Below, in pieces: positions 5,309 through 48,041 of a DNA stretch of 64,000 nt (position 1 is the stretch's first letter; every line of letters begins with the position of its first letter). Where the stretch lies: positions 15,162 through 79,161 of the forward strand of contig CAZUEO010000005.1 in the NCBI GenBank assembly GCA_964619675.1. Direction: 5' to 3'. Source of the stretch: an uncultured Planctomycetaceae bacterium. GTDB taxonomy: Bacteria; Planctomycetota; Phycisphaerae; Sedimentisphaerales; UBA12454. A model generated the notes under the pieces. That model did not search any database. It saw only the letters and a program-made list of their open reading frames with translations, and had not been told where the DNA came from. The position numbers and the translations under genes were made by a program.

Positions 5309-5342
5309 AATAAGGCAGGCAGGAATAAAAAGGCTTTTTATA

Positions 5343-8089: not shown

Positions 8090-10810
8090 ATGGCTAAGAT
8101 TGAGAAAATGGTTTACTTCTTTGGCGCAGGCAAGGCCGAAGGAAACGCAAAAATGAAGGAGCTCCTCGGCGGCAAGGGAGCAAACCTTGCCGAGATGGCA
8201 AGTCTCGGCGTGCCTGTACCTCCGGGCTTTACAATCACGACAGAGGTATGCACTTATTTTTATCAGAATGAAAGAAAATACCCTGCTCAATTGAAGGTCG
8301 ATGTTGAAAAAGCACTTGCCGGAGTTGAGCAGATAATGGATAAAAAGTTCGGCGATGCCGCCAACCCGCTGCTGGTTTCCGTAAGAAGTGGTGCCAGAAG
8401 CAGTATGCCGGGAATGATGGAGACTGTTCTTAACGTCGGTCTTACTGAAAAAACTATCCCCGGTCTTGTCGCTCTTAGCGGCGATGAGAGATTTGTTTAT
8501 GATGCGTATCGCAGATTGATGATGATGTACAGCGATGTCGTTATGGAAAAGGCGGCAGGGATAGAACCTGCCGACGATATGGGTATCCGCAAGCAGCTTG
8601 AAAGAGTAATGAACGAATTGAAGAAACAAAAAGGCTGCAAAAGCGATGTTGACCTGACCACAGAGGACCTAAAAAACCTGTGCGCCCAATTTAAGGTAAA
8701 AATTAAAGAAGTGCTTAAAAAGGAATTTCCTGATGACCCTATGAAGCAGCTCTGGGGCGGCATCGAAGCGGTCTTTGCATCGTGGGACGGCAAAAGGGCT
8801 ATATCGTACAGGAAGATTGAAGGCATTCCCGATGACTGGGGCACCGCGGTAAACGTTCAGACAATGGTATTCGGCAATATGGGCCAGGATAGCGCTACGG
8901 GTGTGGCCTTTACGCGAAATCCAGGCAACGGTGAGAATAAATTTTACGGCGAATATCTTGTCAACGCACAGGGTGAAGATGTCGTGGCAGGTACAAGGAC
9001 ACCGGCGCCAATAAACGAATCCTCAAAAAGTGAGCATAATAAAGACGAAGTTTCTCTCGAAAAGAAGATGCCCGCGGCTTACAAGGAGTTGTTCGCAATA
9101 CAAGATAAGCTTGAAGAGCACTACCGCGATATGCTTGATATTGAATTTACTATTGAAAACAGCAAGCTGTTTATGCTGCAGTGCCGCGTCGGCAAACGCA
9201 ACGGGCCGGCCGCGGTGCGGATGGCCGTCGATATGCTGAAAGAAAAACTCATCACAAACCAAATGGCTTGTTTACGTGTAACTCCCGCACAGATCGATGA
9301 GCTTTTGCATCCGATTATCGACCCTGTTGCGGAAAGACAGCACAAGGCTGTTGCAAAAGGTCTGCCTGCAGGTCCCGGCGGAGCGAAAGGACAAATCGTT
9401 TTCTCCGCACCCGATGCGGTCGCATGGGCAAAGCAGGGCAAAAAGGTTATTCTCGTCCGCGAAGAAACTAACCCGGAAGACGTTGAAGGTATGCGAGCCG
9501 CTCAGGCTATCTTGACTGCTCGTGGTGGAATGACAAGCCATGCGGCACTGGTTGCAAGAGGCTGGGGCAGGTGCTGCATCGTCGGATGCGGCGTGCTGGA
9601 AGTCGAATATGCTAAAAAGCAGCTTCATGTTGACGGCAAGGTGCTTAAGGAAGGCGACTGGATTACGCTTAACGGCACAAAAGGGCTTGTTTATGAAGGT
9701 CAATTGCCGATGATAGATGCTTCACGGGAAAACAAAGAGCTCGATGACTTCTTGAAAATTTGTGATTCGGTAAGGAAACTCGGCATTCGCACCAATGCTG
9801 AAACGCCTGCCGATGCCGCAAAGGCAAGACAGTTCGGCGCAGAAGGTATAGGCTTATTCAGAACGGAGCATATGTTCTACGGCAAAGGTTCGGATGAAGC
9901 GTTGTTTTTGCTTCGCAAGATGATTATGAGCAATACCAAAGAAGAAAGGCAGAAAGCGATTGACCAGCTTTATCCGTTCGTCAAGAAGGATATAAAAGGC
10001 ACACTTGAGGCGATGGACAATCTGCCGGTGGTAATAAGGCTGCTTGACCCGCCGCTGCATGAGTTTGTACCGCAGGACGCCCAAAAACGGGCAGGCCTTG
10101 CGAAAGAACTTAATATCAACGCCGATGAGTTCAATAAACGTGCTGATTCACTGCACGAATCCAACCCGATGATGGGTCACCGCGGCGTAAGGCTGGGCAT
10201 TACTTATCCCGAAGTAAGCAGGATGCAGATAAAGGCTGTTTTTGAAGCTGCCGCCGAACTGATTAAGGCAGGTAAAAATCCGTATCCTGAAATAATGATA
10301 CCGGTTGTTTGTGATGTGAAGGAAATTGAATTCCAGCTACAAATTGCCAAAGAAGTTTACGCCGAGGTCTGCAAAAAGACCGGCGTTAAAGAAATTCGTC
10401 ATATGTTCGGTACAATGATTGAAATTCCTCGAGCGGCGCTTGTAGCCGGCCAAATTGCCGAAGTTGCCGAATTTTTCAGCTACGGCACAAACGACCTTAC
10501 TCAAATGGGCTTTGGTTTTTCACGCGACGACATTGGCGGTTTTCTGCCGGATTACGTCAGCAAGGGCATTTTGCCGGGCGACCCGTTCCAGAGCATTGAC
10601 CAGGTCGGCATCGGCGAATTAATTAAAATAGGTATCGAGCGCGGCAGGAAAGCCCGCAAAAATCTTGAGGTAGGCATCTGCGGCGAACACGGCGGCGACC
10701 CTGCAAGTATTGAATTTTGCCACAAAGTTGGTATGGATTATGTGTCCTGCTCGCCTTTCAGAGTGCCGATTGCAAGGCTCGCAGCAGCCCAGGCGGCGGT
10801 TAAAAATTGA
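8090..10810 (+). CDS. ppdK: Pyruvate, phosphate dikinase
   Basis: The 906-aa protein has the phosphohistidine swivel motif GGMTSHAALVARGWG and a PEP-utiliser C-terminal TIM barrel (GTNDLTQ). Confidence 0.95.
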   Translation: MAKIEKMVYFFGAGKAEGNAKMKELLGGKGANLAEMASLGVPVPPGFTITTEVCTYFYQNERKYPAQLKVDVEKALAGVEQIMDKKFGDAANPLLVSVRSGARSSMPGMMETVLNVGLTEKTIPGLVALSGDERFVYDAYRRLMMMYSDVVMEKAAGIEPADDMGIRKQLERVMNELKKQKGCKSDVDLTTEDLKNLCAQFKVKIKEVLKKEFPDDPMKQLWGGIEAVFASWDGKRAISYRKIEGIPDDWGTAVNVQTMVFGNMGQDSATGVAFTRNPGNGENKFYGEYLVNAQGEDVVAGTRTPAPINESSKSEHNKDEVSLEKKMPAAYKELFAIQDKLEEHYRDMLDIEFTIENSKLFMLQCRVGKRNGPAAVRMAVDMLKEKLITNQMACLRVTPAQIDELLHPIIDPVAERQHKAVAKGLPAGPGGAKGQIVFSAPDAVAWAKQGKKVILVREETNPEDVEGMRAAQAILTARGGMTSHAALVARGWGRCCIVGCGVLEVEYAKKQLHVDGKVLKEGDWITLNGTKGLVYEGQLPMIDASRENKELDDFLKICDSVRKLGIRTNAETPADAAKARQFGAEGIGLFRTEHMFYGKGSDEALFLLRKMIMSNTKEERQKAIDQLYPFVKKDIKGTLEAMDNLPVVIRLLDPPLHEFVPQDAQKRAGLAKELNINADEFNKRADSLHESNPMMGHRGVRLGITYPEVSRMQIKAVFEAAAELIKAGKNPYPEIMIPVVCDVKEIEFQLQIAKEVYAEVCKKTGVKEIRHMFGTMIEIPRAALVAGQIAEVAEFFSYGTNDLTQMGFGFSRDDIGGFLPDYVSKGILPGDPFQSIDQVGIGELIKIGIERGRKARKNLEVGICGEHGGDPASIEFCHKVGMDYVSCSPFRVPIARLAAAQAAVKN

Positions 10811-10811
10811 T

Positions 10812-10832
10812 TTGAGATTTCAAATTTGAAAT
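10812..10832. repeat. Heptanucleotide tandem array (ttgagat ttcaaat ttgaaat), YTSARAT family
   Basis: Three contiguous 7-nt units lie between the ppdK stop and tRNA-His. The unit family is the same as the arrays around the 4HB gene at 31.9-32.6 kb. Confidence 0.7.
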
Positions 10833-10840
10833 TGGTTAAT

Positions 10841-10915
10841 GGTGGGAGTAGCTCAGTTGGTTAGAGCATCAGATTGTGGATCTGAGGGTCGCGGGTTCGA
10901 TTCCCGTCTCTCACC
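10841..10915 (+). tRNA. tRNA-His (anticodon GTG), with an encoded G-1 and no encoded CCA
   Basis: A manual cloverleaf fold gives acceptor GTGGGAG/CTCTCAC, D arm GCTC..GAGC and anticodon stem TCAGA/TCTGA with loop TTGTGGA. The T arm is GCGGG-TTCGATT-CCCGT, and an extra 5' G pairs with discriminator C. Confidence 0.92.
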
Positions 10916-10920
10916 CGTAG

Positions 10921-26916: not shown

Positions 26917-27004
26917 ACGTTCTCTCCAAATGTCGAATTCAAAAAATTTTAAATATTGAATTTTACATCTTAAATTAGTTATTTGCTTGCCAAATAACAC
27001 AGCT

Positions 27005-28139: not shown

Positions 28140-28151
28140 TTCAACCTTATT

Positions 28152-28982
28152 TTATTTATTGCCTTTAAAAAGTTTTTTGTTTTCAGGCCGCTGCAGATAG
28201 TTTTGTCTCGAAATTACTCTTTTACTGGACTTTGATTCAAGGTCTTTGCGTGCCTTTCCTGCAACATCGCCTCCTTCGACAGCGGCTTGCTTATTTTCGT
28301 CAAATCTCTGTGCATCGCGATTTCTGGTTATTTCTGTTGTGGCCGCCTCACCAAGCATAGAAAAAATTAGCTCGAGGTCTGTCATATGATCTCGCAGATT
28401 TTCGCGGTCAAGTCCTTTAAGTTTCTTATATTCGCCTGGCGTTAAACCAAAAGCCGCTTTCGATATTTCCGCGGTTAATATCCCATATTCTGTTTGTTCC
28501 TTAACGCCCCGGGTCTTCCATTCGTCGGTAAGTTCTTCCCGAACAGCTATCCCCCGCATACGTTTTTCTATCCAGTTATCGGAGTATCCCTTGGCCTTGT
28601 AAAGTGCGCGGGTTCTTTTTGTCGCCAGTTCCGGGTCTTCAATTTCCCGGATGCGTTCATAACCGACCCTTGCCAGCCAGCGTTTAAAAGGCTCTGCTTT
28701 GGGGCTTGGTATTGACTGAATTATGCGGAAAATACCTTCCGTATCGGCACAATTTACCTTCTGTGGGCCGCCGTCGGTATCTATCAAAAGGGTATGTACA
28801 AATTGTACCCATCCTTTGGATAGCTGTGGGTCTCGTTTCCGCATTTTATTGATGTATTGTTTTGGGTCATTGGAATCAGTCAGCGCAAAAACGACATCTT
28901 CGACAACGAACCACCATTCGTCTTTATGAATAGTTTTTCTTATTTCCTTGCCTTTGAATACTGCTATTTTTGTCGTTTCCAT
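28152..28982 (-). CDS. Bro-N domain protein (DinD-like, 276 aa)
   Basis: The N-terminal Bro-N-like region is FKGKEIRKTIHKDEWWFVVEDVVFAL. The C-terminal region has a DinD-like length and pattern (LRDHMTDLELIFSMLGEAATTEI). Confidence 0.65.
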   Translation of the reverse strand: METTKIAVFKGKEIRKTIHKDEWWFVVEDVVFALTDSNDPKQYINKMRKRDPQLSKGWVQFVHTLLIDTDGGPQKVNCADTEGIFRIIQSIPSPKAEPFKRWLARVGYERIREIEDPELATKRTRALYKAKGYSDNWIEKRMRGIAVREELTDEWKTRGVKEQTEYGILTAEISKAAFGLTPGEYKKLKGLDRENLRDHMTDLELIFSMLGEAATTEITRNRDAQRFDENKQAAVEGGDVAGKARKDLESKSSKRVISRQNYLQRPENKKLFKGNK

Positions 28983-29128
28983 TTTGACCTTATTTTATAA
29001 TTTATTCCCCTCGTCCGCAACAGTTCTTTTCGTGGTTAGCCCTGCCAACACTTTGGCGGGGTTTGTCATTTTTTTACGTATTTTGGATGCAGTTGCTGCC
29101 TTCGGTTCGGTAATCAATTGTTCCCCTG

Positions 29129-29163
29129 CCCCGTGAGATGCCGCTTCGGCTATCTCATCGGGG
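29129..29163. repeat. Bulged hairpin element, copy L (CCCCGTGAGAT-gccgcttcggct-ATCTCA-t-CGGGG)
   Basis: It forms an 11-bp stem with one bulged T plus a 3-bp inner stem. A second copy with compensatory changes lies at 34645-34679. Confidence 0.8.
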
Positions 29164-29220
29164 TCATCGCAGCCCTCGGCAGCAACTATAATTCTTGCGA
29201 CAGTTTACCCCGACAGTTTA

Positions 29221-29238
29221 TCCCTGCAAAAGCAGGGA
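29221..29238. repeat. Perfect 7-bp hairpin TCCCTGC-aaaa-GCAGGGA, preceded by a 13-nt tandem duplication (cgacagtttaYcc x2, 29198-29223)
   Basis: I read it directly from the sequence. It resembles the in-frame hairpin at 23712-23731. Confidence 0.7.
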
Positions 29239-29280
29239 AAGGTAGGGGCCATTTGCTTTGCTCCTATTTATTTATCTTTG

Positions 29281-31908
29281 CTAATTCAATATCACATCAT
29301 TAAGAGTTTTTACGGGGGCTTTAAAACTGACATCCTTAAATTGCTCGAAATGCTTTTTGCCGCACTTGATTTTTTGTTGTTCTTCTTGTCGCAATTCCTC
29401 TATGCGATTTGTCCCTTTGGTTTCTGCAACAAAATAAACTTTCTTATCTCCTTCATAAACCAGTGCCCAATCAGGATTATATGTACCGAGCGGAGTTTCT
29501 ATCTTAAACCAGAAAGGCAGTTTGAGATAAAACTTGATATCATCTCTTTTTTCACAGTCTTTTGCAAATTCCTTTTCCGTATAGCTTTCTATTTGAACAT
29601 AATCATAAACGGTTTTTTCTTTTTTCATAACTTCGAATAAATCGTCAAGGTATCCGTAAAGTTCTTCACTGTCAAAAAGCCTCTGTTCCCAGTATGAATC
29701 TGCTATCTTTTCATATTTAATCCCATCAACCATCATTTCATTTAGAACCTCGTTTATCTCGACACAAACTTTATCCATAAACTGCTGAGGGTTGATAAAT
29801 ACATCATCAATTTTGCCCGATTCAAGTAAAATGCGGCAAATGGTATCACGGGTTAATCTGGTCTTGTTCTGAATGTATGAAAGAATATCCGGGACGGTTT
29901 CTATATCGCCATATAAATCCCTACTGGATTGTGTTCTGAGTTCTGCCGTAACAGCGGTTTTATCAATTTCAATATCGGCTTTGGTCCTTATCAGTTTTGG
30001 CTTTGTGATTTTAATATCACCTATTTTTTTGCCTGCCCTCTTTATCAATTCATTGGTATCATAATCAACGCTGTAATGGGTCTTCTGCTTAATTTTATCC
30101 CATAAGAGTTTAAAATTCTCATCAAGCTGTAAATTCTTTTGCAGCTTTATTTGTTTTTTCTTCTTTTTGTTCTTAATCCTGCCGCCGAAACTAACGCCGC
30201 ATTCTTCTTCAATCTCAGACTGTAGGGCTTTTGCAAAATCTTCATAATATTCATTCGCTATAACGGTAAGAATATTTATGTTTTCATCAAATACTCTTTT
30301 ACCATCCTGATTTACAGGCAGTCTCATACCTCTGCCGATCTCCTGTCTTTTCTTTAGTGTTGATTGTGTTTCATTCAGTGTGCATATTTGAAATACGTTT
30401 GGATTATCCCAGCCTTCGCGTAAGGCCGAATGTGAAAATATAAATCTCAAAGGTTCGTTCACATCAAGAAGCCGTTCTTTGTCTTTCATTATCAGTTGAT
30501 ACGCACTATCATCGTCTATGGTATCCCTCCCTTCGCGAGAATCCTTCCAGTTTCCTTTTTTATCCTGCGCGAAATAACCATTGTGAGCCTGCCGGGCCTT
30601 ATAATTCAGCAACCCTTTATATTTGTTTTGGTTTCTTGCCTTTTCGTAAAATTCTTCAAACCATAAAGCTATTTTGCCTTTAACAGGATTTTCATTTTCA
30701 TAATTGCGGTAATTAGCCACTCTGTCGATAAAGAACAGTGTTAAAACTTTTATCCCCTTATCTTTTAATCGTTTTTCCTTTTCAAAATGATTATTTATTG
30801 TGCTTTCAATTTGATACCTCATTATCTCATCGGTCAGCCCGCCTTGTTTTTGCCCGACATTAATAGTTATACCGTTATTAAATGTTATGCCCTCCCTGTC
30901 TATTTCACTTACAATAAATCCCTCTTTATACAGGTCCCTTTTGTTTGACTTTTCATAAAGGTCGTCGCCAACCGAAACATTCACATCTTTTTTCACGACC
31001 CCCTCGTTTGTATTAACATCTATTTTCAGCTTTGCGATTATTTTTCTAGTTTGCGGTTTTATGCTTTTTACTTCAATATACGCCAGGTTGAAATTATCTG
31101 CCTCTGTTATCCCATCAACCTCAATTCTTTTGACAAGCCCCAAATCATAAGCCCTTACGGGGTCAAGCCGGTAAATTTCATTGTATCTTACCGTATGTGT
31201 TGCGGAATATCGAAGCGTGCATAATGGATTAAGATTTGCTATCGCCTGCCTCCTGATATCCGTCTCCATATTTTGAGGCTCATCTACGATAACTATCGGT
31301 CTTGTCGCCTTGATAAACTCTGCCGGCACTCCCCAGTCGCTTTGCTGAAAAAATATGTTTCCTGCCCTTGTGAACTGGTCTATATTCATTACCATTATCT
31401 GCAAAGTGTTGGTCGTTGCAAAATTTCTGGCAAGCCCTCTTTTTTTAGGGTCAAATTCGTGGTAATCCAGTGTCGGCTTTTCATAGAGCATATCAAAATG
31501 CTCTTTTGTTATTTCAAGGTTCTTTAATACGCCTTCTTTAATCGCCAGGCTCGGCACAACAATAATAAACTTCTTAAAACCGTAATTTTTATGTAATTCG
31601 TGTATCGTCCGCAGATAAACATAAGTTTTGCCCGTGCCGGTTTCCATCTCTATTGAAAAATGAAAACCATCGAGTTTATTTGAGACTTCTATTTCATTTC
31701 TCTGCTGAATAATTTGAAGATTTTTTAATATTGTTTCATTGTCAAGGATTAAATTATTCGCAACAACGCTCAAAAATGTTCCGCCAACTGATGTAGCCTT
31801 TGCATAGGCAAAATCGCTCGCCCCCGCAGGTTGACCCGCAAATATTTCAACCGTTGCATTTATAGCATCTTTCTGAAATTCCTGATTTGCGTCAAATTGA
31901 AGTTTCAT
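29281..31908 (-). CDS. res: Type III restriction endonuclease, Res subunit
   Basis: The MKLQFDANQEFQKDAI N-terminus, helicase motif I METGTGKT, motif II IVIVDEPQNM and a C-terminal PD-(D/E)xK region (NPDWALV..FVAETKG) are present. The ATG at 31908 is preferred over 31938. Confidence 0.88.
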   Translation of the reverse strand: MKLQFDANQEFQKDAINATVEIFAGQPAGASDFAYAKATSVGGTFLSVVANNLILDNETILKNLQIIQQRNEIEVSNKLDGFHFSIEMETGTGKTYVYLRTIHELHKNYGFKKFIIVVPSLAIKEGVLKNLEITKEHFDMLYEKPTLDYHEFDPKKRGLARNFATTNTLQIMVMNIDQFTRAGNIFFQQSDWGVPAEFIKATRPIVIVDEPQNMETDIRRQAIANLNPLCTLRYSATHTVRYNEIYRLDPVRAYDLGLVKRIEVDGITEADNFNLAYIEVKSIKPQTRKIIAKLKIDVNTNEGVVKKDVNVSVGDDLYEKSNKRDLYKEGFIVSEIDREGITFNNGITINVGQKQGGLTDEIMRYQIESTINNHFEKEKRLKDKGIKVLTLFFIDRVANYRNYENENPVKGKIALWFEEFYEKARNQNKYKGLLNYKARQAHNGYFAQDKKGNWKDSREGRDTIDDDSAYQLIMKDKERLLDVNEPLRFIFSHSALREGWDNPNVFQICTLNETQSTLKKRQEIGRGMRLPVNQDGKRVFDENINILTVIANEYYEDFAKALQSEIEEECGVSFGGRIKNKKKKKQIKLQKNLQLDENFKLLWDKIKQKTHYSVDYDTNELIKRAGKKIGDIKITKPKLIRTKADIEIDKTAVTAELRTQSSRDLYGDIETVPDILSYIQNKTRLTRDTICRILLESGKIDDVFINPQQFMDKVCVEINEVLNEMMVDGIKYEKIADSYWEQRLFDSEELYGYLDDLFEVMKKEKTVYDYVQIESYTEKEFAKDCEKRDDIKFYLKLPFWFKIETPLGTYNPDWALVYEGDKKVYFVAETKGTNRIEELRQEEQQKIKCGKKHFEQFKDVSFKAPVKTLNDVILN

Positions 31909-31913
31909 TTTGC

Positions 31914-31944
31914 ACCAATTTGAAATTTGAAATCTCAAATCTGA
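31914..31944. repeat. Direct repeat, left copy (core 27-mer atttgaaatttgaaatctcaaatctga at 31918-31944)
   Basis: It is identical over 27 nt, and 30/31 over the extended match, to 32468-32498. It is itself built of 7-nt units (31921-31948), and AATCTCA-aatc-TGAGATT forms a hairpin at 31931-31948. Confidence 0.9.
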
Positions 31945-31946
31945 GA

Positions 31947-32450
31947 TTATTTATCTTCTGGATAATCCTGCGGCCTGGCCTTTCTCAAAGTTTCCTGAAT
32001 TTGTTTTTCAAACGCATCTGCACGTCTTTTCGCTTCATATATGCCGCGTGTATTTTCATTTAAATGCCGTTGTCCTTTTATATCGCTGTTTTGCAGGCTG
32101 TCCGCCCATCCGCGTATCTGCCGTGAGCACGATTCCGCTTTTGATTTGAGATCTGAAATCTGAGATTTCAGATGTGCCGCTTCTGGAAACAGTTCTGTAA
32201 AAAGCAGCATTGAGCGTGTTTCTCCGCACGAGCCGCGGGAGATATATAAGAAGGCGAGCAGTTCCGCCGTTGAGCCGCGCTCAAATCCTTCTGCTATATT
32301 ATTCGAAACTGAAAGCGAAGAACGACGCATCTGGTCGCGAAGGTCCCCGGGCTGATTGAAGAACTTGTCTTTAGTCAGCTCATACACTCCTTTGGCCAGT
32401 TCTATCGCTAACTGCCACACCGGTAAATCTTCAAACCGCTCATATTTCAT
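31947..32450 (-). CDS. Four-helix-bundle protein (23S rRNA-intervening-sequence protein family), copy 1, with an extended C-terminus
   Basis: FEDLPVWQLAIELAKGVYELT..LRDQMRRSSLSVSNNIAEGFERGS..FLYISRGSCGETRS matches the family signature. It is inserted between mod and res. Confidence 0.85.
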   Translation of the reverse strand: MKYERFEDLPVWQLAIELAKGVYELTKDKFFNQPGDLRDQMRRSSLSVSNNIAEGFERGSTAELLAFLYISRGSCGETRSMLLFTELFPEAAHLKSQISDLKSKAESCSRQIRGWADSLQNSDIKGQRHLNENTRGIYEAKRRADAFEKQIQETLRKARPQDYPEDK

Positions 32451-32467
32451 CTTTTTTATCCTTCAAA

Positions 32468-32574
32468 ACCTATTTGAAATTTGAAATCTCAAATCTGATA
32501 TCCGTTTATGAAATCTGAAACTTCAAATCTGCTATTTTTTAGTTTTCTGAAATTTGAGATTTTAAATCTGAGAT
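32468..32574. repeat. Direct repeat, right copy (32468-32498), plus two more 4-unit heptamer arrays (32509-32536 and 32547-32574)
   Basis: The arrays read tgaaatt tgaaatc tcaaatc tgatatc / tgaaatc tgaaact tcaaatc tgctatt / ctgaaat ttgagat tttaaat ctgagat. Together they fill the mod-4HB intergenic gap. Confidence 0.9.
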
Positions 32575-32577
32575 TCG

Positions 32578-34449
32578 TCATATTACTTTAAATTCTATTC
32601 TTTCGCCTTCCATCTGCAGAGCCGTATTCGTCTTTAACCGGTCGTTATTACTAAAAGCAATATCAAGGCAGGTAAACCTCTGGGGCTTTTCTTTTATAAT
32701 CTTTTCGACGAATTTTTTTGTTATTTTCTCTGCAAGGCAGATAATCTCCATACCGTCCGCAAGACTGAAATAATCAATTGAATCAAAATTTTTCTTTTCA
32801 ATCTTTACATTCAAATCAAATCGGCTGTTTTTAAGAATAATCTCAAAGAGCATATCTTCAACGGCCGCACCCTTTTTCGTATTATCAACGAACATCTTCA
32901 TCTGCTCTTTTAATTGGCCGGCCGTTTTTATATCTTCTCGCCACTGCTTGAAATTACTCTGCTCTAATTTAAAGACCTTAAATCCCAAATCCAATTTGTT
33001 TTTGTCAAATTTGAGATTCCCTTCTATCTCCTTTTTTATCTTTTCCGCCGCCCGCCGGAGCCTTTCCTTGCCTATTTCAGCTATTGTCTTAAAGCCCGCT
33101 TTATATGCCTCGCTGTCTTCTTCGCAAGGCTCTGCCAACTGAACGCAGATAAATTTCCTGTTCCCGCCATCTTCAGCATTCAAAGCCATTACTGCGTGTG
33201 CCGTTGTACAAGACCCGGCAAAAAAATCGAGAACGATATCATCTTCACCTAAGCCTTGTACTAACAGCTCTCTAATTAATTCTGTAGGCTTTGGGAACTC
33301 CATATATCTAGCTTTAAATAATTCTTCTAATTCATTGGTTCCATTTCTTGTATATATATCAGGTGCTATAATCGAAGAATAACCCGTGAACTCGTCATTA
33401 AGTTCAGAAAGAAATATTTTTCTGCGTGGTCTTCCTTTTTGTGACTGCGGCCAGATTATCCTATCTTCTTCAATCAATTTTTGCATGGTGTTTTTATCAT
33501 ATCGCCACCCCATTTTAGGTTTGCCATAATTAATACCAGTCTTGGGATTTATTAAGTCATAATGACAATTAGGCCTTTGTTCTTCCGGCAATAAACCTAC
33601 CATATTTCCGCTTACCCAGTCTCCTCTTGGATCATTGTCTGGATTTTTGTATTGTTCTTTATTTCTTTCTGAACCTCTTATCCTATTTCCTGAAGTTCTC
33701 GTATAAACAAGTACATATTCATGATCGATCGAAACGCCCGTGATATTTCGATTATCTTTATTTTGACGGCTTTTCCAAATAAGTTGCGCAACAAAACTTT
33801 CCTCTCCAAAAATTTCATTCATAATCATTCGCAGGTTATAGACTTCGTTGTCATCGATTGAAACAAAAATAACGCCGTCATCACGGAGCAGATTTCTTGC
33901 CAGAAAAAGTCTCGGATATATCATTGAAAGCCAGTTTGAATGAAAATGGCCTGCATCTTTACTGTTCTTTCGCCAGAAACCGTCTTTTGTAAGTAGTCCT
34001 TCGGCGTCTTTTATCCCTGCCCGCAGTTCGTAATCTTCTTTCTCCTCTTTGAATCTGTCGGGATAAATAAAACTGTCGTTGCCGGTATTATATGGCGGGT
34101 CGATATAAATCATCTTTATTTTGCCGTAATAGGTTTTTTGCAGGACTTTAAGGACCTCTAAATTATCCCCTTCAATAAAAATATTTTCTGAGCTCTGAGA
34201 TTTCAAATCTGAGATTTTCAGTGTTGCTGTCGTGGTTTCTTGTATATGGCGAAAGCACTCGCTTTTTCCCGCCCAGCTTAGGCCGTATCGTTCATTATTT
34301 GTATCGAGTTCTTCGCCGAGTGTTTGTTTTAGTTTGTCTGGGCTGATTTTGCCTTCGGCAAAAATCTCTGGGAAGCGGGATTTGAGCAGTTCCGCAAGTT
34401 CTTTTTGTGGGCTTGCCGAATTGCCGTCTATTTTATGTATCTTTGCCAT
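32578..34449 (-). CDS. mod: Type III DNA methyltransferase, Mod subunit (beta-class N6-adenine)
   Basis: IYIDPPYNTGND (motif IV) lies upstream of VLDFFAGSCTT (motif I). The 623-aa gene is adjacent to res. Confidence 0.88.
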   Translation of the reverse strand: MAKIHKIDGNSASPQKELAELLKSRFPEIFAEGKISPDKLKQTLGEELDTNNERYGLSWAGKSECFRHIQETTTATLKISDLKSQSSENIFIEGDNLEVLKVLQKTYYGKIKMIYIDPPYNTGNDSFIYPDRFKEEKEDYELRAGIKDAEGLLTKDGFWRKNSKDAGHFHSNWLSMIYPRLFLARNLLRDDGVIFVSIDDNEVYNLRMIMNEIFGEESFVAQLIWKSRQNKDNRNITGVSIDHEYVLVYTRTSGNRIRGSERNKEQYKNPDNDPRGDWVSGNMVGLLPEEQRPNCHYDLINPKTGINYGKPKMGWRYDKNTMQKLIEEDRIIWPQSQKGRPRRKIFLSELNDEFTGYSSIIAPDIYTRNGTNELEELFKARYMEFPKPTELIRELLVQGLGEDDIVLDFFAGSCTTAHAVMALNAEDGGNRKFICVQLAEPCEEDSEAYKAGFKTIAEIGKERLRRAAEKIKKEIEGNLKFDKNKLDLGFKVFKLEQSNFKQWREDIKTAGQLKEQMKMFVDNTKKGAAVEDMLFEIILKNSRFDLNVKIEKKNFDSIDYFSLADGMEIICLAEKITKKFVEKIIKEKPQRFTCLDIAFSNNDRLKTNTALQMEGERIEFKVI

Positions 34450-34644
34450 TCGCTTATTTCTCCTTTGCTTCTAATTCGGCTCGATTTTCCCCTATTTTCT
34501 GCCATTCTTTTTTTCCCCAGATTTTTAAATCCGTGCCCGATTCCTTAATTCTGTCTACTGAATTCTCCGTAAGGAGTCCATAGGACTGTATTCTGAATTC
34601 TCTTTTCCGCCATTCCTTTATTTCTCCTATGTTTACCCCGCCTG

Positions 34645-34679
34645 CCCTGTGAGATGTCTCTTAGACTATCTCATCAGGG
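34645..34679. repeat. Bulged hairpin element, copy R (CCCTGTGAGAT-gtctcttagact-ATCTCA-t-CAGGG)
   Basis: Its architecture matches 29129-29163. C:G becomes T:A in both the outer stem and the inner stem. Confidence 0.8.
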
Positions 34680-34711
34680 TGAGATATCCGCCCGCAGGCG
34701 GCTCCTTTCAC

Positions 34712-34739
34712 CAAATACCATATACTAAATGCCAAATAC
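34712..34739. repeat. Heptanucleotide array caaatac catatac taaatgc caaatac
   Basis: Four contiguous 7-nt units, read directly from the sequence. Confidence 0.8.
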
Positions 34740-34790
34740 TCTGGACTTCTTTGTACTCTTCGTGCCCTCTGTGGTGAGAGTTTAGTGTAC

Positions 34791-34869
34791 ATTTTTAATT
34801 TTTATTTGTCGTTTTTATTTTTTATTTTTTATATTTGATATTTTTTACTGGCGACCAGCGACCAGCGAC
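34791..34869. repeat. Heptanucleotide arrays: an ATTTTTW-type run of 8 units (34791-34846), then gcgacca x2.7 (34851-34869)
   Basis: The 7-nt register is maintained across attttta attttta tttgtcg tttttat tttttat tttttat atttgat atttttt, followed by gcgacca gcgacca gcgac. Confidence 0.8.
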
Positions 34870-34940
34870 TAATTATCGACTCGGCTATTCGACTTTCAAC
34901 TCTTGCCCGCCGCAGGCGGGCCGGCGGTTCCATTATTCTG

Positions 34941-34968
34941 TAATCTATAATCTACAATCTGTAATCTG
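34941..34968. repeat. Heptanucleotide array taatcta taatcta caatctg taatctg, abutting the mlaE stop
   Basis: Four contiguous 7-nt units end 1 nt before the mlaE stop codon (34970-34972). Confidence 0.85.
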
Positions 34969-34969
34969 C

Positions 34970-35806
34970 TTAAAGCAGTATTTTCAATGGCCACAATGTT
35001 GAGTAAATAGCCTTGAATACCACTACCAGGACAAAGTCTATCGCCAGTATCAGGATAAAACTGCCGACGAACCCTTCTGTACACGCCTGGCCTACGCCAT
35101 GAGCACCTTCTTTGCAGTGGAAGCCTTTATAGCAGCTTACGCCTGCGATTGCTGCTCCGAAGAAGAAGCCTTTTACAACGCCTATTGAGATATCCCACAT
35201 TTCGACGCCTCCGGCGCTGAGGCTCCAGTAGGCTTTGCTATTGATACCGAGGTAGGGTACGCTGATGAAGTATCCGCCGAGGATACCGAGGATATCGGCA
35301 TAGATTATCAGGAATGGTGTAAGGAGCAGGCAGGCTATTAATCGTGGAGCCACGAGGTATTTTATTGGGTCGGTGCCCATACTGCGGACTGCCAGTATTT
35401 GTTCTGTTACGTTCATTGTGCCGAGTTCTGCGGTAAGTGCTCCGCCGACTCTGCCGGCGAGCATAACTGCTGCCAGCACAGGCCCCAGTTCTTTTACGAC
35501 TGACAGGTTAATTAGTACGCCAAGATGTTCTTCAATTCCCAGCCCTGCAAGCTGGTCATAGGCCTGAATCGCAAGCACCATCCCCACAAACGCTCCGGTG
35601 ATAGCAACGACGAGTACGCTGCGGACGCCGATGGCGAGCATCTGATTCCATATCAATGGATAAGTCGGGGGCCTTAAACACGCTGCAAAGGAGGCGACTA
35701 AAGATTCAGCCTGAAACCTGGCGAATCTGCCGCAGTTGCCCACAGCGGTAACTACCCAGCCGCCCAACTGCTCCAGCATCGAACTTCTTGTTTGCTGCTG
35801 TGCCAT
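34970..35806 (-). CDS. mlaE: ABC transporter permease, MlaE/Ttg2B-like
   Basis: The MlaE-family pattern is present (ILAVRSMGTDPIKYLVAPRLIA), with a polytopic C-terminal half. Confidence 0.82.
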   Translation of the reverse strand: MAQQQTRSSMLEQLGGWVVTAVGNCGRFARFQAESLVASFAACLRPPTYPLIWNQMLAIGVRSVLVVAITGAFVGMVLAIQAYDQLAGLGIEEHLGVLINLSVVKELGPVLAAVMLAGRVGGALTAELGTMNVTEQILAVRSMGTDPIKYLVAPRLIACLLLTPFLIIYADILGILGGYFISVPYLGINSKAYWSLSAGGVEMWDISIGVVKGFFFGAAIAGVSCYKGFHCKEGAHGVGQACTEGFVGSFILILAIDFVLVVVFKAIYSTLWPLKILL

Positions 35807-45981: not shown

Positions 45982-46030
45982 AAAAATAAAAACTAAAAAA
46001 TAAAAACTACATATAAAAATTAAAAATTAT
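45982..46030. repeat. Heptanucleotide array (aaaaata aaaacta)x2, then catataa aaattaa aaattat
   Basis: Seven contiguous 7-nt units run into the stop codon of 4HB copy 2 (46027-46029). Confidence 0.8.
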
Positions 46031-46398
46031 TTCTTGCCCTTTAGTGTTAGAAGGCTTGAGCCGAAGATATTGGAAATTTCACCCAGCTCTTTTAAAAACC
46101 ACTCTGACTTGTCCGGTTTTATGCGTTTACTGTCTCTCAGGAGCGCCAGCCAAACCTTGCTTTCATTGGCAGATTTCAGAGAAATGTGAAAATAATTGGT
46201 AAAGTCTTTTTTACTGCTCGCGGTTTGTCCTTCAATGTAATTTGCCAAAATACTCGTTCCACTTTTTAATAACTGGTCACCAAGACGTTTTGATACGTTA
46301 TCATCGGGGAGTTGGTCGAGCAGTTCAATAAGGCGCAGCGCAAAATTGTAAAGGCGTTTTTTAAAGTCATTTTCAAATTTTTCTTTGTCGTTTTTCAT
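46027..46398 (-). CDS. Four-helix-bundle protein (23S rRNA-IVS protein family), copy 2
   Basis: RLYNFALRLIELLDQLP..LGDQLLKSGTSILANYIEGQ..FTNYFHISLKSANESKVWLALL matches the family pattern. The protein is 123 aa. Confidence 0.8.
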   Translation of the reverse strand: MKNDKEKFENDFKKRLYNFALRLIELLDQLPDDNVSKRLGDQLLKSGTSILANYIEGQTASSKKDFTNYFHISLKSANESKVWLALLRDSKRIKPDKSEWFLKELGEISNIFGSSLLTLKGKK

Positions 46399-46423
46399 TT
46401 TTATATTTTATTTTTTATATTCC
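46396..46423. repeat. Heptanucleotide array cattttt atatttt atttttt atattcc
   Basis: The array contains the 4HB-2 start codon (46396-46398), the gltX stop (46401-46403) and the last gltX codons (..GNIKNKI*). Confidence 0.8.
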
Positions 46424-48041
46424 CAAAGTTATCTATTGCCCTGTCGATTCTTTTGATAGTTTCCTCGATGCCGAGCATATCTACCGACTCAAATATCGGC
46501 AGCGAGACGGTTGTTCCGCAGATTGCCAGCCGCAGCGGCTGGGCAACTTTGCCGAGGCCTGCCTCTTTTTCCTCGGCTAAGGCCCGCAGCATTTTTGCTA
46601 TCGCCTGCTCGGTAATCACCTCAATTTCTGTCAGGCGTCTCTTCAGCTCTGCAAGCATTAAAAGCCCTTCGCCGTTGTTTTTTAGCAGGACCTTTTCGAC
46701 ATCCTTTTCGTTATATTCTATTTTATCACAGTCGATAAATAAAAAAGCGCTTTTTTGCTCAATCTCGGCGAGCGTTCTTGCGCCGATACCTGCTGTCAGT
46801 ATCCGCAAAAGCAGTTTGTCATCGGCGTTTGCCGCAGGAGAATTTGTGCCTTTGAGAAAATTCCTGTATCTTTTCAAAAGTTTTTCTTTATCCAGCAGCT
46901 TTATATGTCCTGTGTTGAACGCCAGCAGTTTTTTTCTGTCGAACAAGCTGTTTGTCTTATTGAATCGCGAGGGGTCAAAGGTATCAATAAGCTCCTGCAT
47001 CGTTAAAATCTCTTTATTACCCGGGGGACTGTAACCTAAAAGGGCTATAAAATTGACGAGCGCCTCGGGCAGATAGCCGCTTTTGAAAAAATCGACAATG
47101 TTTACTTCGGGCAGCTCGACATTCAGAAATTCGGCCATCGCGTCAATGGCGGGCTGGTCGGGCAGCCAATCGCCGGTGAGAAATTCCTCCAATTGCTGAA
47201 TTGAAATCCCGCCGGCGGAGGCAAGCTCCTGCCCAGCCGGATTTTCTGTTCTTTTTATCGCGTCTTTCAGGACTTTTGCCCTGTCTCGCTTTGACATTTT
47301 TCCGCCGGCATTGCTGACGGTAACGGACATATGAGCGTAAAGGGGCGTTTTAAAGCCGAGCGCATTTTGCAGCGCGATATGGCTCGGCGTGTTCATCAGA
47401 TGTTCCTGTCCTCGCAGAACGTGCGTAACACCCATAAGCTCATCGTCAACGACGCAGGCAAAATGATATGTCGGCAGGCCGTCGCTTTTTAGAATTATAA
47501 AATCGCTGATTTGGCTGCCGTCAAATTTCACCTGCCTGCGGATAACATCATCCACGATGATTTGGTCGCTGCCCATACAAAAGCGCACCGTGACGGGCTT
47601 GCCCTGCGAACGAGCCTGCTCTGTCTGGCTGCTGTCTGGAAACCTGGCAGGGCGGGGATAAAGGAAATTCTTTTTTTCTGCAGCGGCTTTCTGCCGCATT
47701 TGTTCAAGCTCCTGGGTTGTATCAAAGCAATAATAAGCCTTGCCCTGCTCGACGAGCTGCTTCGCATATTTTTCGTATATGGCTTTTCGCTGCGACTGAA
47801 AGTACGGCTCGGCAGGCCCGCCAACCTCGGGGCCTTCGTCCCAATCAAGGCCCAGCCAGCGCAAATCGTTCATCACCTGCTTTGCGGCAGTGGGCGTGTT
47901 TCTGCTCTGGTCAGTGTCCTCAATGCGCAAGATGAATTTGCCGCCTGATTTACGAGCCCAAAGCAGACTAAACAGCGCGGTCCTCGCCCCGCCAATGTGA
48001 AGATAGCCTGTCGGCGAAGGTGCAAATCTCGTTACTGCCAT
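46401..48041 (-). CDS. gltX: Glutamate--tRNA ligase
   Basis: The HIGH motif (YLHIGGARTALF) and the KMSKS motif (GKMSKRD) are present. At 546 aa the C-terminus is long. Confidence 0.9.
   Translation of the reverse strand: MAVTRFAPSPTGYLHIGGARTALFSLLWARKSGGKFILRIEDTDQSRNTPTAAKQVMNDLRWLGLDWDEGPEVGGPAEPYFQSQRKAIYEKYAKQLVEQGKAYYCFDTTQELEQMRQKAAAEKKNFLYPRPARFPDSSQTEQARSQGKPVTVRFCMGSDQIIVDDVIRRQVKFDGSQISDFIILKSDGLPTYHFACVVDDELMGVTHVLRGQEHLMNTPSHIALQNALGFKTPLYAHMSVTVSNAGGKMSKRDRAKVLKDAIKRTENPAGQELASAGGISIQQLEEFLTGDWLPDQPAIDAMAEFLNVELPEVNIVDFFKSGYLPEALVNFIALLGYSPPGNKEILTMQELIDTFDPSRFNKTNSLFDRKKLLAFNTGHIKLLDKEKLLKRYRNFLKGTNSPAANADDKLLLRILTAGIGARTLAEIEQKSAFLFIDCDKIEYNEKDVEKVLLKNNGEGLLMLAELKRRLTEIEVITEQAIAKMLRALAEEKEAGLGKVAQPLRLAICGTTVSLPIFESVDMLGIEETIKRIDRAIDNFGNIKNKI

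What the first reader, a model, noticed from the sequence alone, without database searches (positions are those of the whole stretch)
31914..32498. Four-helix-bundle gene between Type III mod and res is bracketed by an exact 27-bp direct repeat
The 27-mer atttgaaatttgaaatctcaaatctga occurs at 31918-31944 and again at 32472-32498. The extended match is 30/31 from 31914 and 32468. The two copies enclose only the 4HB ORF (31947-32450). The left copy overlaps the 4HB stop and lies 10 nt from the res start codon. It also folds as AATCTCA-aatc-TGAGATT, while the right copy has lost that hairpin. This geometry is what a cassette inserted by site-specific or slippage-mediated duplication would leave. 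It also means recombination between the copies would cleanly excise the 4HB gene and restore a compact mod-res operon. From memory, 4HB genes are often embedded in R-M operons in annotated genomes, but their role and mobility mechanism are unexplained.
Basis: seen in the sequence. Interest (0 to 1): 0.75.

Follow-up and report, generated by a model that had tools for sequence, protein, structure and literature searches.

The report
Repeat-bounded 4HB gene cassette in R-M operon
The 27-base repeat is real, but it is the best-matching stretch of two arrays of 7-base units that travel with a small, widely scattered four-helix-bundle gene, the same protein family and the same end-repeat layout as the "intervening sequences" of ribosomal RNA, here sitting in a swappable slot between the two genes of a restriction-modification operon.

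Summary
Observation confirmed: the exact 27-mer occurs twice (31918-31944, 32472-32498; 34 nt with 2 mismatches) and brackets only the 4HB gene. It is not a target-site duplication. It belongs to arrays of heptads (SARATYT in gene orientation, a palindromic hexamer plus one base). In 80 genome loci from many phyla, 135 of 141 such arrays lie within 250 bp of this 4HB subfamily. A further array inside the ORF (codons 93-102) is held at synonymous sites. Relatives of this Type III operon carry about 60 other cargo gene clusters, or none, between mod and res, without heptads. Operons about 93% identical break homology exactly at the mod stop and the res ATG. Other 4HB subfamilies carry other units, with the upstream array complementary to the downstream one. 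These include a second cassette in this window and a classical 23S rRNA IVS. Best reading: an IVS-type 4HB cassette living in an mRNA operon, with the 27-mer a recent homogenisation between its two end arrays. What the arrays do (RNA stem, recombination substrate or protein binding) is inferred, not shown.

The parts
32578..34449 (-). Type III R-M methyltransferase gene (mod)
   Evidence: Pfam N6_N4_Mtase 3.9e-34. PADLOC MTase_III 2.5e-192.
34191..34217 (-). In-frame heptad patch inside mod, encoding (K)ISDLKSQS
   Evidence: Zero-mismatch match to the three-heptad pattern. It replaces the segment P-x-x-x-ESVDFD-x-T that is conserved in about 35 Mod relatives, including those that carry the 4HB cassette.
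32546..32577 (-). Distal upstream heptad block, starting right after the mod stop codon
   Evidence: It is 79% complementary over 33 nt to the downstream array (I1) and pairs with it in the MFE fold.
32509..32530 (-). Middle upstream heptad block
   Evidence: In the MFE fold it forms a local hairpin with the proximal block.
32468..32501 (-). Proximal upstream heptad array; this is the right copy of the repeat (exact 27-mer 32472-32498)
   Evidence: DNA homology with cassettes in unrelated contexts starts here (query positions about 344-353).
32451..32471 (-). Shine-Dalgarno spacer of the 4HB gene (aggttttgaaGGAtaaaaaag before the ATG)
   Evidence: Relatives conserve cagaaGGAGagaaaag-ATG. The last upstream heptad ends 13-30 nt before the ATG in most loci.
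31947..32450 (-). Four-helix-bundle protein gene (167 aa; PF05635 / TIGR02436, S23p/Avd-like)
   Evidence: Pfam 4e-25 and NCBIfam TIGR02436 6.5e-24. PDB 2GSC 2.1e-08 by sequence. The AF2 model has 4 helices plus a C-terminal helix, and the best Foldseek hits are 2GSC and 2RLD. dN/dS is 0.03-0.09.
32142..32175 (-). Internal heptad array (codons 93-102, HLKSQISDLK, start of helix 4)
   Evidence: In 76 genes, synonymous codons conform to the heptad consensus 87-96% of the time inside this stretch and 6-59% outside it (Ser p=8e-49).
31914..31947 (-). Downstream heptad array; this is the left copy of the repeat (exact 27-mer 31918-31944), ending 9 nt before the res ATG
   Evidence: Homology with cassettes elsewhere ends here (query positions 930-934), and homology with Res-only relatives starts at the res ATG (940-943).
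29281..31908 (-). Type III restriction subunit gene (res), start taken at the ATG at 31908
   Evidence: Pfam ResIII plus RE_endonuc. PADLOC REase_III 1.4e-284.
28152..28982 (-). Bro-N domain gene downstream of res (defence candidate PDC-S13)
   Evidence: Pfam Bro-N 3.2e-12. PADLOC PDC-S13 5.9e-113. Homologues occupy the mod-res slot in other relatives or lie directly upstream of heptad 4HB genes.
10808..10834 (.). Solo heptad array with no 4HB gene, between the PPDK stop and tRNA-His
45982..46425 (-). Second 4HB cassette of another subfamily: ORF 46027-46398, upstream (ATAAAAA)n at 46399-46425, downstream (TTTTTAT)n at 45982-46026
   Evidence: Pfam PF05635 1.2e-19. Arrays found by TRF and by reading. 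Complement score 14 against a baseline 99th percentile of 10.3; direct score 8. Neighbours are a Glu/Gln-tRNA synthetase and a PfkB kinase.

Best explanation
The two 27-mers are parts of the terminal heptad arrays of a compact 4HB gene cassette, laid out as array, SD, 4HB ORF with an internal array, array. The cassette is built like a 23S rRNA intervening sequence: an S23p/Avd-family ORF bounded by mutually complementary end repeats. Here it resides between cistrons of an mRNA operon. The arrays belong to the cassette, not to the target. The cassette reached the mod-res junction, a slot where cargo genes are exchanged, most likely by homologous recombination through the conserved mod 3' end and res 5' end (inferred). 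Because the heptad unit (ARATYT + S) is its own reverse complement, the two end arrays are both inverted and direct repeats of each other. The exact 27-mer (34 nt with 2 mismatches) is best explained as a recent short-patch conversion or unequal exchange between the two arrays (inferred). The same process would also keep the internal array heptad-like and would have written the in-frame patch in mod. Most likely role of the arrays (inferred, about 0.3-0.4): in the mod-4HB-res transcript the upstream and downstream arrays pair into an imperfect stem that closes off the 4HB ORF and is a substrate for RNase III, as shown experimentally for rRNA IVSs, so the insert is tolerated inside a transcription unit. 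The biochemical function of the 4HB protein stays unknown, but it is under strong purifying selection and has its own SD, so it is expressed and needed by host or element.
For: Arrays travel with the gene:
- In 80 genome loci with 58-96% identical 4HB proteins, from Phycisphaerae, Pirellulales, Verrucomicrobiota, Desulfobacterales, Acidobacteriota, Omnitrophota and others, 135 of 141 heptad arrays in 703 kb lie within 250 bp of the 4HB gene.
- Upstream arrays end 13-30 nt before the ATG and downstream arrays start 3-20 nt after the stop.
- The array persists even in a GC-rich contig (L178).
- None of the 79 other loci has a close Mod or Res homologue. Neighbours range from R-M and CRISPR genes to housekeeping genes. 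The 95-96% identical proteins sit upstream of dprA.
- DNA homology between cassettes in different contexts begins at the proximal upstream array and ends at the end of the downstream array.

Slot behaviour:
- variable cargo; scattered carriers in the Res tree; homology breakpoints at the mod stop and res ATG between 89-95% identical operons.
- L088 keeps a mod-tail / cassette / res-head fragment.

End-repeat rule in other subfamilies:
- The 9-mer subfamily, in 5 unrelated contexts, has (GTGNGAARR)n upstream and the complement downstream.
- The second cassette in this window has A/T heptads.
- L113 is a true IVS inside LSU rRNA.
- Complement scores are 11-22 against a baseline 99th percentile of 10.3, with direct scores at baseline.
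- In the heptad subfamily the commonest upstream unit, GAGATTT, is the array complement of the commonest downstream unit, CAAATCT.
- MFE folds close the ORF with an array-array stem.
- RNase III excision at the terminal-repeat stem of an S23p-encoding IVS is published (PMC4990558).

Homogenisation:
- Same-locus upstream/downstream exact strings have median 15 nt against 11 nt cross-locus (p=3.5e-4).
- L085 has 23 nt and L093 20 nt, with different sequences.
- The window's downstream array is of the atypical 'upstream' type.

Other support:
- Internal array constraint.
- Purifying selection: dN/dS 0.03-0.09 with dS 0.9 or more.
Against: - No experiment or transcript data are available, so RNA pairing and RNase III cleavage are inferred.
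- The stems are imperfect (window: 33 nt at 79%).
- The MFE z-score is modest (-1.67 for the window, -2.95 for L087).
- Duplex energies of the flanks are not better than those of random genomic segment pairs.
- There is no same-locus excess of duplex stability and no preference for the sense strand.
- Only 31% of heptad-subfamily loci exceed the baseline 99th percentile for complementarity.
- Subfamily-specific, sequence-conserved units are more than a mere stem needs, which points to sequence-specific recognition by some factor.
- The RNA-stem idea does not explain the conserved internal array.
- The mechanism that brings a cassette into a wholly new context is unknown.
Confidence: 0.55

Rival explanations
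1. One reading: the 4HB gene was inserted by a site-specific or slippage-type event that duplicated a 27-bp target sequence. Empty sites should then carry one 27-mer.
For: An exact 27-mer brackets only the 4HB gene. Identity of 27 nt or more between arrays of different loci is rare (1 of 506). A compact mod-res junction exists in one relative (L160).
Against: The compact junction and more than 50 junctions with other cargo contain no heptads. The arrays accompany the 4HB gene in unrelated contexts, so they are element-borne. Other subfamilies have inverted flanks, not direct ones. No integrase or transposase lies between 23.3 and 38.5 kb.
Confidence: 0.08
2. Campbell-type integration: a circular or linear cassette carrying one array recombined with a pre-existing solo heptad array at the junction. 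The 27-mer marks the crossover region, and excision would reverse the event.
For: Solo arrays without a 4HB gene exist (10808-10834 in the window; 6 in the loci). Same-locus upstream and downstream arrays are more alike than cross-locus pairs. L085 and L093 also have exact upstream/downstream repeats of 20-23 nt. 27 bp is near the minimum length for RecA-dependent exchange (general knowledge).
Against: Solo arrays are rare, and none was seen at a mod-res junction. Near-isogenic operons differ by whole-cargo replacement with breakpoints at the mod stop and res ATG, not at arrays. This model does not explain the inverted arrays of other subfamilies. No circular form or excision junction could be searched for.
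Confidence: 0.15
3. The heptad arrays are cooperative binding sites on DNA or RNA for a sequence-specific protein, possibly the 4HB protein itself. This would resemble the 7-bp heptad operators of the omega repressor of pSM19035, or the subterminal repeats bound by transposases. Binding would control expression of the 4HB gene or res, or mark the element's ends for mobility.
For: Each 4HB subfamily keeps its own unit across contexts and phyla. There are three arrays per cassette, including one held at synonymous sites. The spacing is strictly 7 bp with invariant A2, A4, T5 and T7. Avd, a homologue, binds nucleic acid within the DGR complex (own knowledge; homology noted in PMC10053308).
Against: No DNA-binding motif or sequence-specific binding is known for PF05635. 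The protein is near neutral (pI 7.7). The strand asymmetry of downstream arrays (AAATCT 137 vs AGATTT 29) is unexpected for a purely palindromic duplex site. Nothing was tested directly.
Confidence: 0.2
4. The arrays are phase-variable simple-sequence repeats that switch the Type III R-M system on and off, as in phasevarions.
For: Type III mod genes often carry simple repeats (general knowledge; PMC1557822). There is a repeat patch inside mod.
Against: The units are imperfect. The mod patch is in frame and only 27 nt long. The arrays follow the 4HB gene into non-R-M contexts and are absent from the other R-M relatives.
Confidence: 0.03

Closest known systems
23S rRNA intervening sequences encoding S23p (Leptospira, Coxiella burnetii)
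   Same: Both carry an ORF of the same protein family (PF05635). Both are bounded by complementary terminal repeats and sit inside a host transcription unit. Both show sporadic, horizontally scattered distribution. A real example (L113) turned up in the same data set. Stem cleavage by RNase III is published (PMC4990558).
   Different: This element lies between protein-coding cistrons, not in rRNA. Its ends are tandem arrays of 7-nt units rather than unique inverted repeats. It has a conserved SD, and strong purifying selection shows the protein is made, whereas the Coxiella S23p appears not to be synthesised. It also has an extra internal array.
Accessory or defence genes embedded in R-M operons (e.g. 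PrrC inside the EcoprrI hsd locus; own knowledge)
   Same: Same-strand cargo sits between the modification and restriction genes. In relatives the slot holds Shedu, RhuM, Bro-N/PDC-S13, SIR2+HerA, RES/HEPN and Fic genes.
   Different: The 4HB cargo has no known defence role (no PADLOC hit). It also occurs among housekeeping genes, and it brings its own flanking arrays.
Integron gene cassettes with attC
   Same: A promoterless single-gene unit with an imperfectly palindromic recombination-site-like end, inserted in the orientation of transcription.
   Different: The cargo is always the same gene family. There are repeats at both ends, no attC R/L box architecture and no integrase nearby. The units are tandem heptads.
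Heptad operators of the omega repressor (pSM19035) and subterminal repeats of transposons (own knowledge)
   Same: Arrays of contiguous 7-bp units in direct or inverted orientation, and short repeats clustered at both ends of an element.
   Different: No RHH repressor or transposase is encoded here, and binding has not been tested.
Avd of diversity-generating retroelements
   Same: Homologous four-helix-bundle fold (weak PF22296 bAvd hits in relatives; homology noted in PMC10053308).
   Different: No reverse transcriptase or TR/VR pair is adjacent. The heptad variation is by transitions at R/Y positions, not adenine-specific.

Membership tests
PF05635 / TIGR02436 four-helix-bundle (23S rRNA IVS protein, S23p) family | Significant match to the family HMMs above the curated cut-offs | tested here: met
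   Pfam 88.5 bits (cut-off 33.8), E=4e-25, covering 105 of 106 model positions. TIGR02436 84.2 bits (cut-off 24).
PF05635 / TIGR02436 four-helix-bundle (23S rRNA IVS protein, S23p) family | Four-helix-bundle fold like the solved members 2GSC and 2RLD | tested here: met
   The AF2 model (pLDDT 68.8) has helices 10-25, 36-58, 61-87 and 89-120, plus an extra helix 132-158. The top Foldseek hits are 2GSC and 2RLD (probability 1.00, TM on target 0.62-0.65, but E only 0.02-0.07). Sequence hit to 2GSC 2.1e-08.
Type III restriction-modification system | Mod methyltransferase plus Res helicase-nuclease in one operon | tested here: met
   Mod: N6_N4_Mtase, PADLOC MTase_III 2.5e-192. Res: ResIII plus RE_endonuc, REase_III 1.4e-284. 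Same strand, order mod-4HB-res.
rRNA intervening sequence (IVS) | Located inside a 16S or 23S rRNA gene | tested here: not met
   The element lies between mod and res. There is no Rfam hit in 31500-33000. Therefore 'IVS-type', not an IVS.
rRNA intervening sequence (IVS) | Complementary terminal repeats that can close the element in a stem | tested here: inconclusive
   33 nt at 79% complementarity. Complement score 14 against a baseline 99th percentile of 10.3. A closing stem appears in the MFE fold. However, the z-score is -1.67 and duplex energy is not exceptional.
rRNA intervening sequence (IVS) | Excision from the transcript by RNase III | not testable with these tools
   Needs RNA data or an in vitro cleavage assay.
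Transposon or insertion with target-site duplication | The direct repeat derives from the target: a single copy at empty sites, lying outside the element's own ends | tested here: not met
   Junctions without the 4HB gene carry no heptads. The repeat lies inside arrays that move with the gene.
Integron gene cassette | attC site and an integron integrase/attI platform | tested here: not met
   None of the nine large minus-strand ORFs scanned between 23.3 and 38.5 kb is an integrase or recombinase. The repeats are tandem heptads at both ends.
Phase-variable simple-sequence repeat (phasevarion) | A perfect tandem repeat tract in the coding region or promoter whose length changes switch expression | tested here: not met
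   The units are imperfect (TRF 62-80% matches). The arrays are tied to the 4HB gene and not to R-M relatives.

The most novel reading that the evidence does not exclude
PF05635 four-helix-bundle genes together with their subfamily-specific terminal arrays form a previously unrecognised class of tiny autonomous elements. The protein would recognise its own array units (as DNA or RNA) and promote copying of the cassette, and of short array patches, into new transcription units. That would include rRNA genes, which would explain the origin of ORF-bearing rRNA intervening sequences.
Probability: 0.15. Interest if true: 0.9.

Novelty: new variant of a known kind. Interest (0 to 1): 0.62.

Why it matters
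PF05635/TIGR02436 proteins are extremely common: at least 8000 clusters at 90% identity came up for each of two subfamilies queried here. They are annotated only as 'four helix bundle protein', and they recur inside R-M and CRISPR loci and in rRNA IVSs with no known role. This analysis shows a common cassette architecture. End arrays are complementary and specific to each protein subfamily. They are conserved across phyla and contexts, and in one subfamily an array is also held inside the ORF at synonymous sites. This ties operon-embedded 4HB genes to rRNA IVSs and turns two old questions into testable ones. What is S23p for, and where do IVSs come from? The tests are RNase III processing of operon transcripts, binding of the protein to its array, and array-driven recombination. 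The work also documents a sharply bounded cargo-exchange slot between mod and res in one Type III R-M lineage. That slot is of interest for defence-island biology.

Tried and rejected
- RNA.duplexfold energies of 140-nt flanks looked impressive (-50 to -120 kcal/mol). Random genomic segment pairs give a mean of -69.9, so I dropped energies as evidence and used an ungapped complement score instead.
- Comparing sense and antisense duplex stability to detect RNA-level selection gave no consistent signal.
- A conserved hairpin in the internal array is not general. The perfect 10-bp hairpin is specific to the window.
- Rfam found no family in 31500-33000.
- The promoter and terminator scan showed nothing at the cassette beyond shuffle expectation.
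- Viral contig scans with three 4HB queries returned 0, 0 and 1 locus, so phages are not an evident vehicle.
- Literature searches (PF05635; four helix bundle + R-M; S23p) found nothing describing flanking arrays or operon-embedded IVS-type cassettes. Only the Coxiella IVS paper and a DGR paper were useful. The library is incomplete, so prior description cannot be excluded.
- A look-up of the window's Res protein for the source record returned nothing, so the organism is inferred only as Phycisphaerae/Sedimentisphaerales-like from homologue names.
- Chance or low complexity is rejected by shuffles.
- Adenine-specific, DGR-like mutagenesis is rejected because the invariant heptad positions are A and T.
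Full report
**1. The observation**

The 27-mer ATTTGAAATTTGAAATCTCAAATCTGA occurs exactly twice in the window, at 31918-31944 and 32472-32498. No copy appears in 100 shuffles, and no further copy appears with up to 3 mismatches. The similarity extends to 34 nt with two mismatches (31914-31947 and 32468-32501).

All genes here are on the minus strand:
- mod, 34449-32578 (N6_N4_Mtase; PADLOC MTase_III 2.5e-192)
- a 167-aa four-helix-bundle (4HB) gene, 32450-31947 (PF05635 4e-25; TIGR02436 6.5e-24)
- res, from the ATG at 31908 down to 29281 (ResIII + RE_endonuc; REase_III 1.4e-284)

The copies enclose the 4HB ORF and its 21-nt SD spacer. An independent Logan assembly is base-for-base identical over 31642-33948. 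Two small corrections: the exact 27-mer stops 2 nt short of the 4HB stop codon, and it lies 9 nt from the res ATG.

**2. What the repeat is made of**

Both copies are stretches of imperfect 7-nt tandem units (TRF period 7).
- On the + strand the unit is ARATYTS. In gene orientation it is SARATYT, a palindromic hexamer ARATYT plus one C/G, so an array reads the same on both strands.
- A three-unit pattern finds 19 hits in the window against 0.8 expected.
- The hits cluster in five places:
  - the 4HB-res spacer (31916-31949)
  - three blocks in the mod-4HB spacer (32470-32576)
  - inside the 4HB ORF (32142-32175, encoding HLKSQISDLKSK)
  - inside mod (34191-34217, encoding ISDLKSQ)
  - between the PPDK stop and tRNA-His (10808-10834)

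**3. The arrays belong to the 4HB gene, not to the site**

- A genome scan with the 4HB protein returned 80 loci, 58-96% identical. They come from Phycisphaerae/Sedimentisphaerales, Pirellulales, Verrucomicrobiota, Desulfobacterales, Acidobacteriota, Omnitrophota, Armatimonadetes and others.
- In those 703 kb, 135 of 141 heptad arrays (3 or more units) lie within 250 bp of the 4HB gene. Most loci have arrays upstream, inside and downstream.
- Upstream arrays end 13-30 nt before the ATG, leaving a conserved GGAG. Downstream arrays start 3-20 nt after the stop. An AT-rich array survives even in a GC-rich contig (L178).
- None of the other 79 loci has a close Mod or Res homologue.
- Neighbours are very diverse: R-M methylases, HsdS, MmeI, Cas7/Cas1/Cas4, and also tRNA synthetases, dehydrogenases and peptidases. 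The 95-96% identical proteins lie upstream of dprA.
- blastn of the window cassette against cassettes in unrelated contexts gives homology from the proximal upstream array (the right 27-mer) to the end of the downstream array (the left 27-mer). Res relatives that lack this cassette align only from the res ATG onward.

**4. The mod-res junction is a cargo-exchange slot**

- Eighty metagenomic relatives of Res (54-86% identity) were fetched.
- Only L160 has a compact 14-nt mod-res junction. All others have 349-3882 nt filled by one or two same-strand genes from about 60 unrelated clusters.
- The cargo includes Shedu SduA_C, RhuM, Bro-N, DUF5131, SIR2+HerA, RES/HEPN, Fic and other 4HB subfamilies.
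- Heptads occur only where the heptad-type 4HB is present (L085, L093, L121; L102 is cut at the contig end). They are absent from the other junctions.
- On an NJ tree of the Res N-terminal half (no support values), the heptad-4HB carriers are scattered among carriers of other cargo.
- L085 (heptad 4HB) and L082/L083 (unrelated 195-aa and 114-aa ORFs) are 89-95% identical at the DNA level in mod and res. Homology stops exactly at the mod stop codon and resumes at the res ATG.
- L088 retains a decayed junction downstream of an intact operon: 18 nt of res head, 30 nt of mod tail, the heptad cassette, then a 33-codon res head.
- The simplest reading (inferred) is exchange of the whole inter-cistronic cargo by homologous recombination through the conserved mod tail (…IEFKVI*) and res head (ATGAAACTTCAATTTGA…).

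**5. Is the 27-mer an insertion footprint?**

No evidence supports a target-site origin. No junction has a single 27-mer or any heptad without the 4HB gene. Three findings point the other way:
- Upstream and downstream arrays of the same locus share longer exact strings than arrays of different loci (median 15 vs 11 nt, p=3.5e-4). Strings of 27 nt or more occur in 1 of 506 cross-locus pairs.
- Relatives at the same junction have their own, different exact repeats: L085 23 nt, L093 20 nt, L121 13 nt.
- Downstream arrays are normally of the AAATCT type (137 vs 29 AGATTT). The window's downstream array is of the AGATTT type, like its upstream array.

Synonymous divergence between the window cassette and its closest relative is already about 0.9. 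Exact 20-27-nt identities must therefore be recent. I conclude (inferred) that the 27-mer reflects recent short-patch conversion or unequal exchange between the cassette's two end arrays. Integration by recombination with a pre-existing solo array cannot be excluded.

**6. Nucleotide-level constraint inside the ORF, and ectopic patches**

- In 76 aligned genes, codons 93-102 (H-L-K-S-Q/E-I-S-D/N-L-K) use heptad-conforming synonymous codons far more often than the same amino acids elsewhere in the gene:

| Amino acid (conforming codon) | Inside codons 93-102 | Elsewhere in the gene | p |
|---|---|---|---|
| Ser | 87% | 24% | 8e-49 |
| Lys (AAA) | 96% | 59% | |
| Arg (AGA) | 87% | 6% | |
| Asp (GAT) | 96% | 44% | |

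- The protein as a whole is under strong purifying selection (dN/dS 0.03-0.09) with saturated synonymous sites.
- In the AF2 model the motif is the start of helix 4.
- The window's mod gene carries a heptad patch that replaces, in frame, the segment P-x-x-x-ESVDFD-x-T conserved in about 35 relatives.
- L006 has a similar in-frame patch inside the neighbouring N6_Mtase-Methylase_S gene.
- Three heptads span 21 nt, or seven codons. Any reading frame of an array therefore gives the same amphipathic heptad peptide (Q/E-I-S-D/N-L-K/R-S/F), which may be why such patches are tolerated.

**7. A general rule for 4HB genes**

Other subfamilies carry other units, and the upstream array is the complement of the downstream array.
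- The 9-mer subfamily has (GTGNGAARR)n upstream and (YYTTCNCAC)n downstream in five unrelated contexts:
  - mod-res (L087/L101, 37% identical to the window protein)
  - beta-lactamase and PurL
  - an acyltransferase and a NucS-like gene
  - near a cold-shock gene
  - hsdR-hsdS
- A second 4HB gene in this very window (46027-46398, PF05635 1.2e-19) lies between a Glu/Gln-tRNA synthetase and a PfkB kinase. It has (ATAAAAA)n upstream and (TTTTTAT)n downstream.
- L113 is a textbook case: the 4HB ORF sits inside an LSU rRNA gene, closed by a perfect 13-bp stem.

I scored ungapped complementarity (+1/-2) of 140-nt flanks. The baseline from 184 random genomic segment pairs has a 99th percentile of 10.3 and a maximum of 12.

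| Case | Complement score |
|---|---|
| L087 | 11 |
| L101 | 12 |
| L162 | 13 |
| L113 (IVS) | 13 |
| L167 | 14 |
| Window, second cassette | 14 |
| Window, heptad cassette | 14 |
| L165 | 15 |
| L169 | 22 |

- L045 scored 7.
- Direct-repeat scores are at baseline for all cases except the window heptad cassette, which scores 28.
- In the heptad subfamily the commonest upstream unit, GAGATTT, is the array complement of the commonest downstream unit, CAAATCT.
- This is the architecture of the S23p-encoding rRNA IVSs. Their terminal inverted repeats form the stem that RNase III cuts (PMC4990558).

**8. How it most likely works**

Shown:
- a cassette with element-borne end arrays
- a swappable slot
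- purifying selection on the protein
- nucleotide-level constraint on the internal array

Inferred:
- In the operon transcript the end arrays pair and close off the ORF. MFE folds show this for the window and for L087. This would give an RNase III substrate, so the insert is tolerated in a transcription unit.
- At the DNA level the arrays recombine with each other. That would explain the 27-mer, the maintenance of the internal array and the mod patch.

Cautions:
- The stems are imperfect.
- Fold z-scores are modest (-1.67 and -2.95).
- Duplex energies are no better than random genomic pairs.
- There is no sense-strand preference.
- Only 31% of heptad loci exceed the baseline for complementarity.
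- The subfamily-specific conservation of the unit sequence suggests recognition by a protein, possibly the 4HB itself. That remains a live rival, and it is the most novel reading.

**9. Comparison with what is known, and novelty**

- The protein is a clear member of PF05635/TIGR02436, and the operon is a clear Type III R-M system.
- The element is not an IVS in the strict sense because it is not in rRNA, but it is built like one.
- It resembles accessory genes embedded in R-M operons in position, and integron cassettes only superficially.
- I found no description of array-bounded 4HB cassettes in operons in the searchable literature. That library is incomplete.
- I rate the finding as a new variant of a known kind.

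**10. Verdict**

The feature is a real, repeat-bounded 4HB cassette in a cargo slot. The 27-mer is part of the cassette's own arrays, not an insertion scar. Interest 0.62.

Noticed in passing
window 45982-46425: A second 4HB gene of another subfamily (46027-46398, minus strand; PF05635 1.2e-19) sits between a Glu/Gln-tRNA synthetase gene and a PfkB kinase gene. It is flanked by complementary A/T heptad arrays: (ATAAAAA)n upstream, overlapping the stop of the synthetase gene, and (TTTTTAT)n downstream.
   Followed up: partly
window 34191-34217: An in-frame heptad patch inside mod replaces a segment (PxxxESVDFDxT) conserved in about 35 Mod relatives. A similar in-frame patch lies in the methyltransferase gene next to the cassette in L006 (6874-6902).
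   Followed up: partly
window 28140-34970: The mod-4HB-res-bro block is a low-GC island (0.36-0.41 against about 0.5). It is inserted between mlaE (34970-35806) and an ABC ATPase gene (27288-28139) that would normally be adjacent partners.
   Followed up: no
window 28152-28982: The Bro-N protein matches the PADLOC single-gene defence candidate PDC-S13 (5.9e-113). Its homologues occupy the mod-res slot in L115, L128, L129 and L142, and lie directly upstream of heptad-type 4HB genes in L067 and L068.
   Followed up: partly
window 34450-34969: The spacer between mlaE and mod is a patchwork of other period-7 arrays: AGATTNN x5 at 34937-34968, GTCGCTG x3 at 34851-34869, and ATAAAAA-type at 34791-34847. 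It also holds two GC-rich hairpins. These may be remnants of other cassettes.
   Followed up: no
window 10808-10834: A solo heptad array with no 4HB gene lies between the PPDK stop codon and tRNA-His (10842-10916).
   Followed up: no
window 26266-27000; L171-L174 about 4784-5452: An HNH_3 (homing-endonuclease-like) gene lies 5 kb from the cassette. A 61% identical homologue lies 1.3 kb from the 95%-identical 4HB cassette in the dprA context. Weaker HNH hits lie near cassettes in L008, L012, L014 and L054. No baseline frequency is known.
   Followed up: partly
L088 7560-8410: A decayed second mod-res junction: 18 nt of res head, 30 nt of mod tail, an intact heptad 4HB cassette, then a 33-codon res head. 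It lies downstream of an intact mod-4HB(9-mer type)-res-bro operon. The cassette has outlived its R-M system.
   Followed up: partly
L113 3185-5413: A classical 23S rRNA intervening sequence with a 4HB ORF (3476-3862), closed by a perfect 13-bp stem. It happened to lie next to a Res relative.
   Followed up: yes
window 42713-43053: A 177-bp tandem duplication (1.9 copies, 75% matches) reported by TRF.
   Followed up: no
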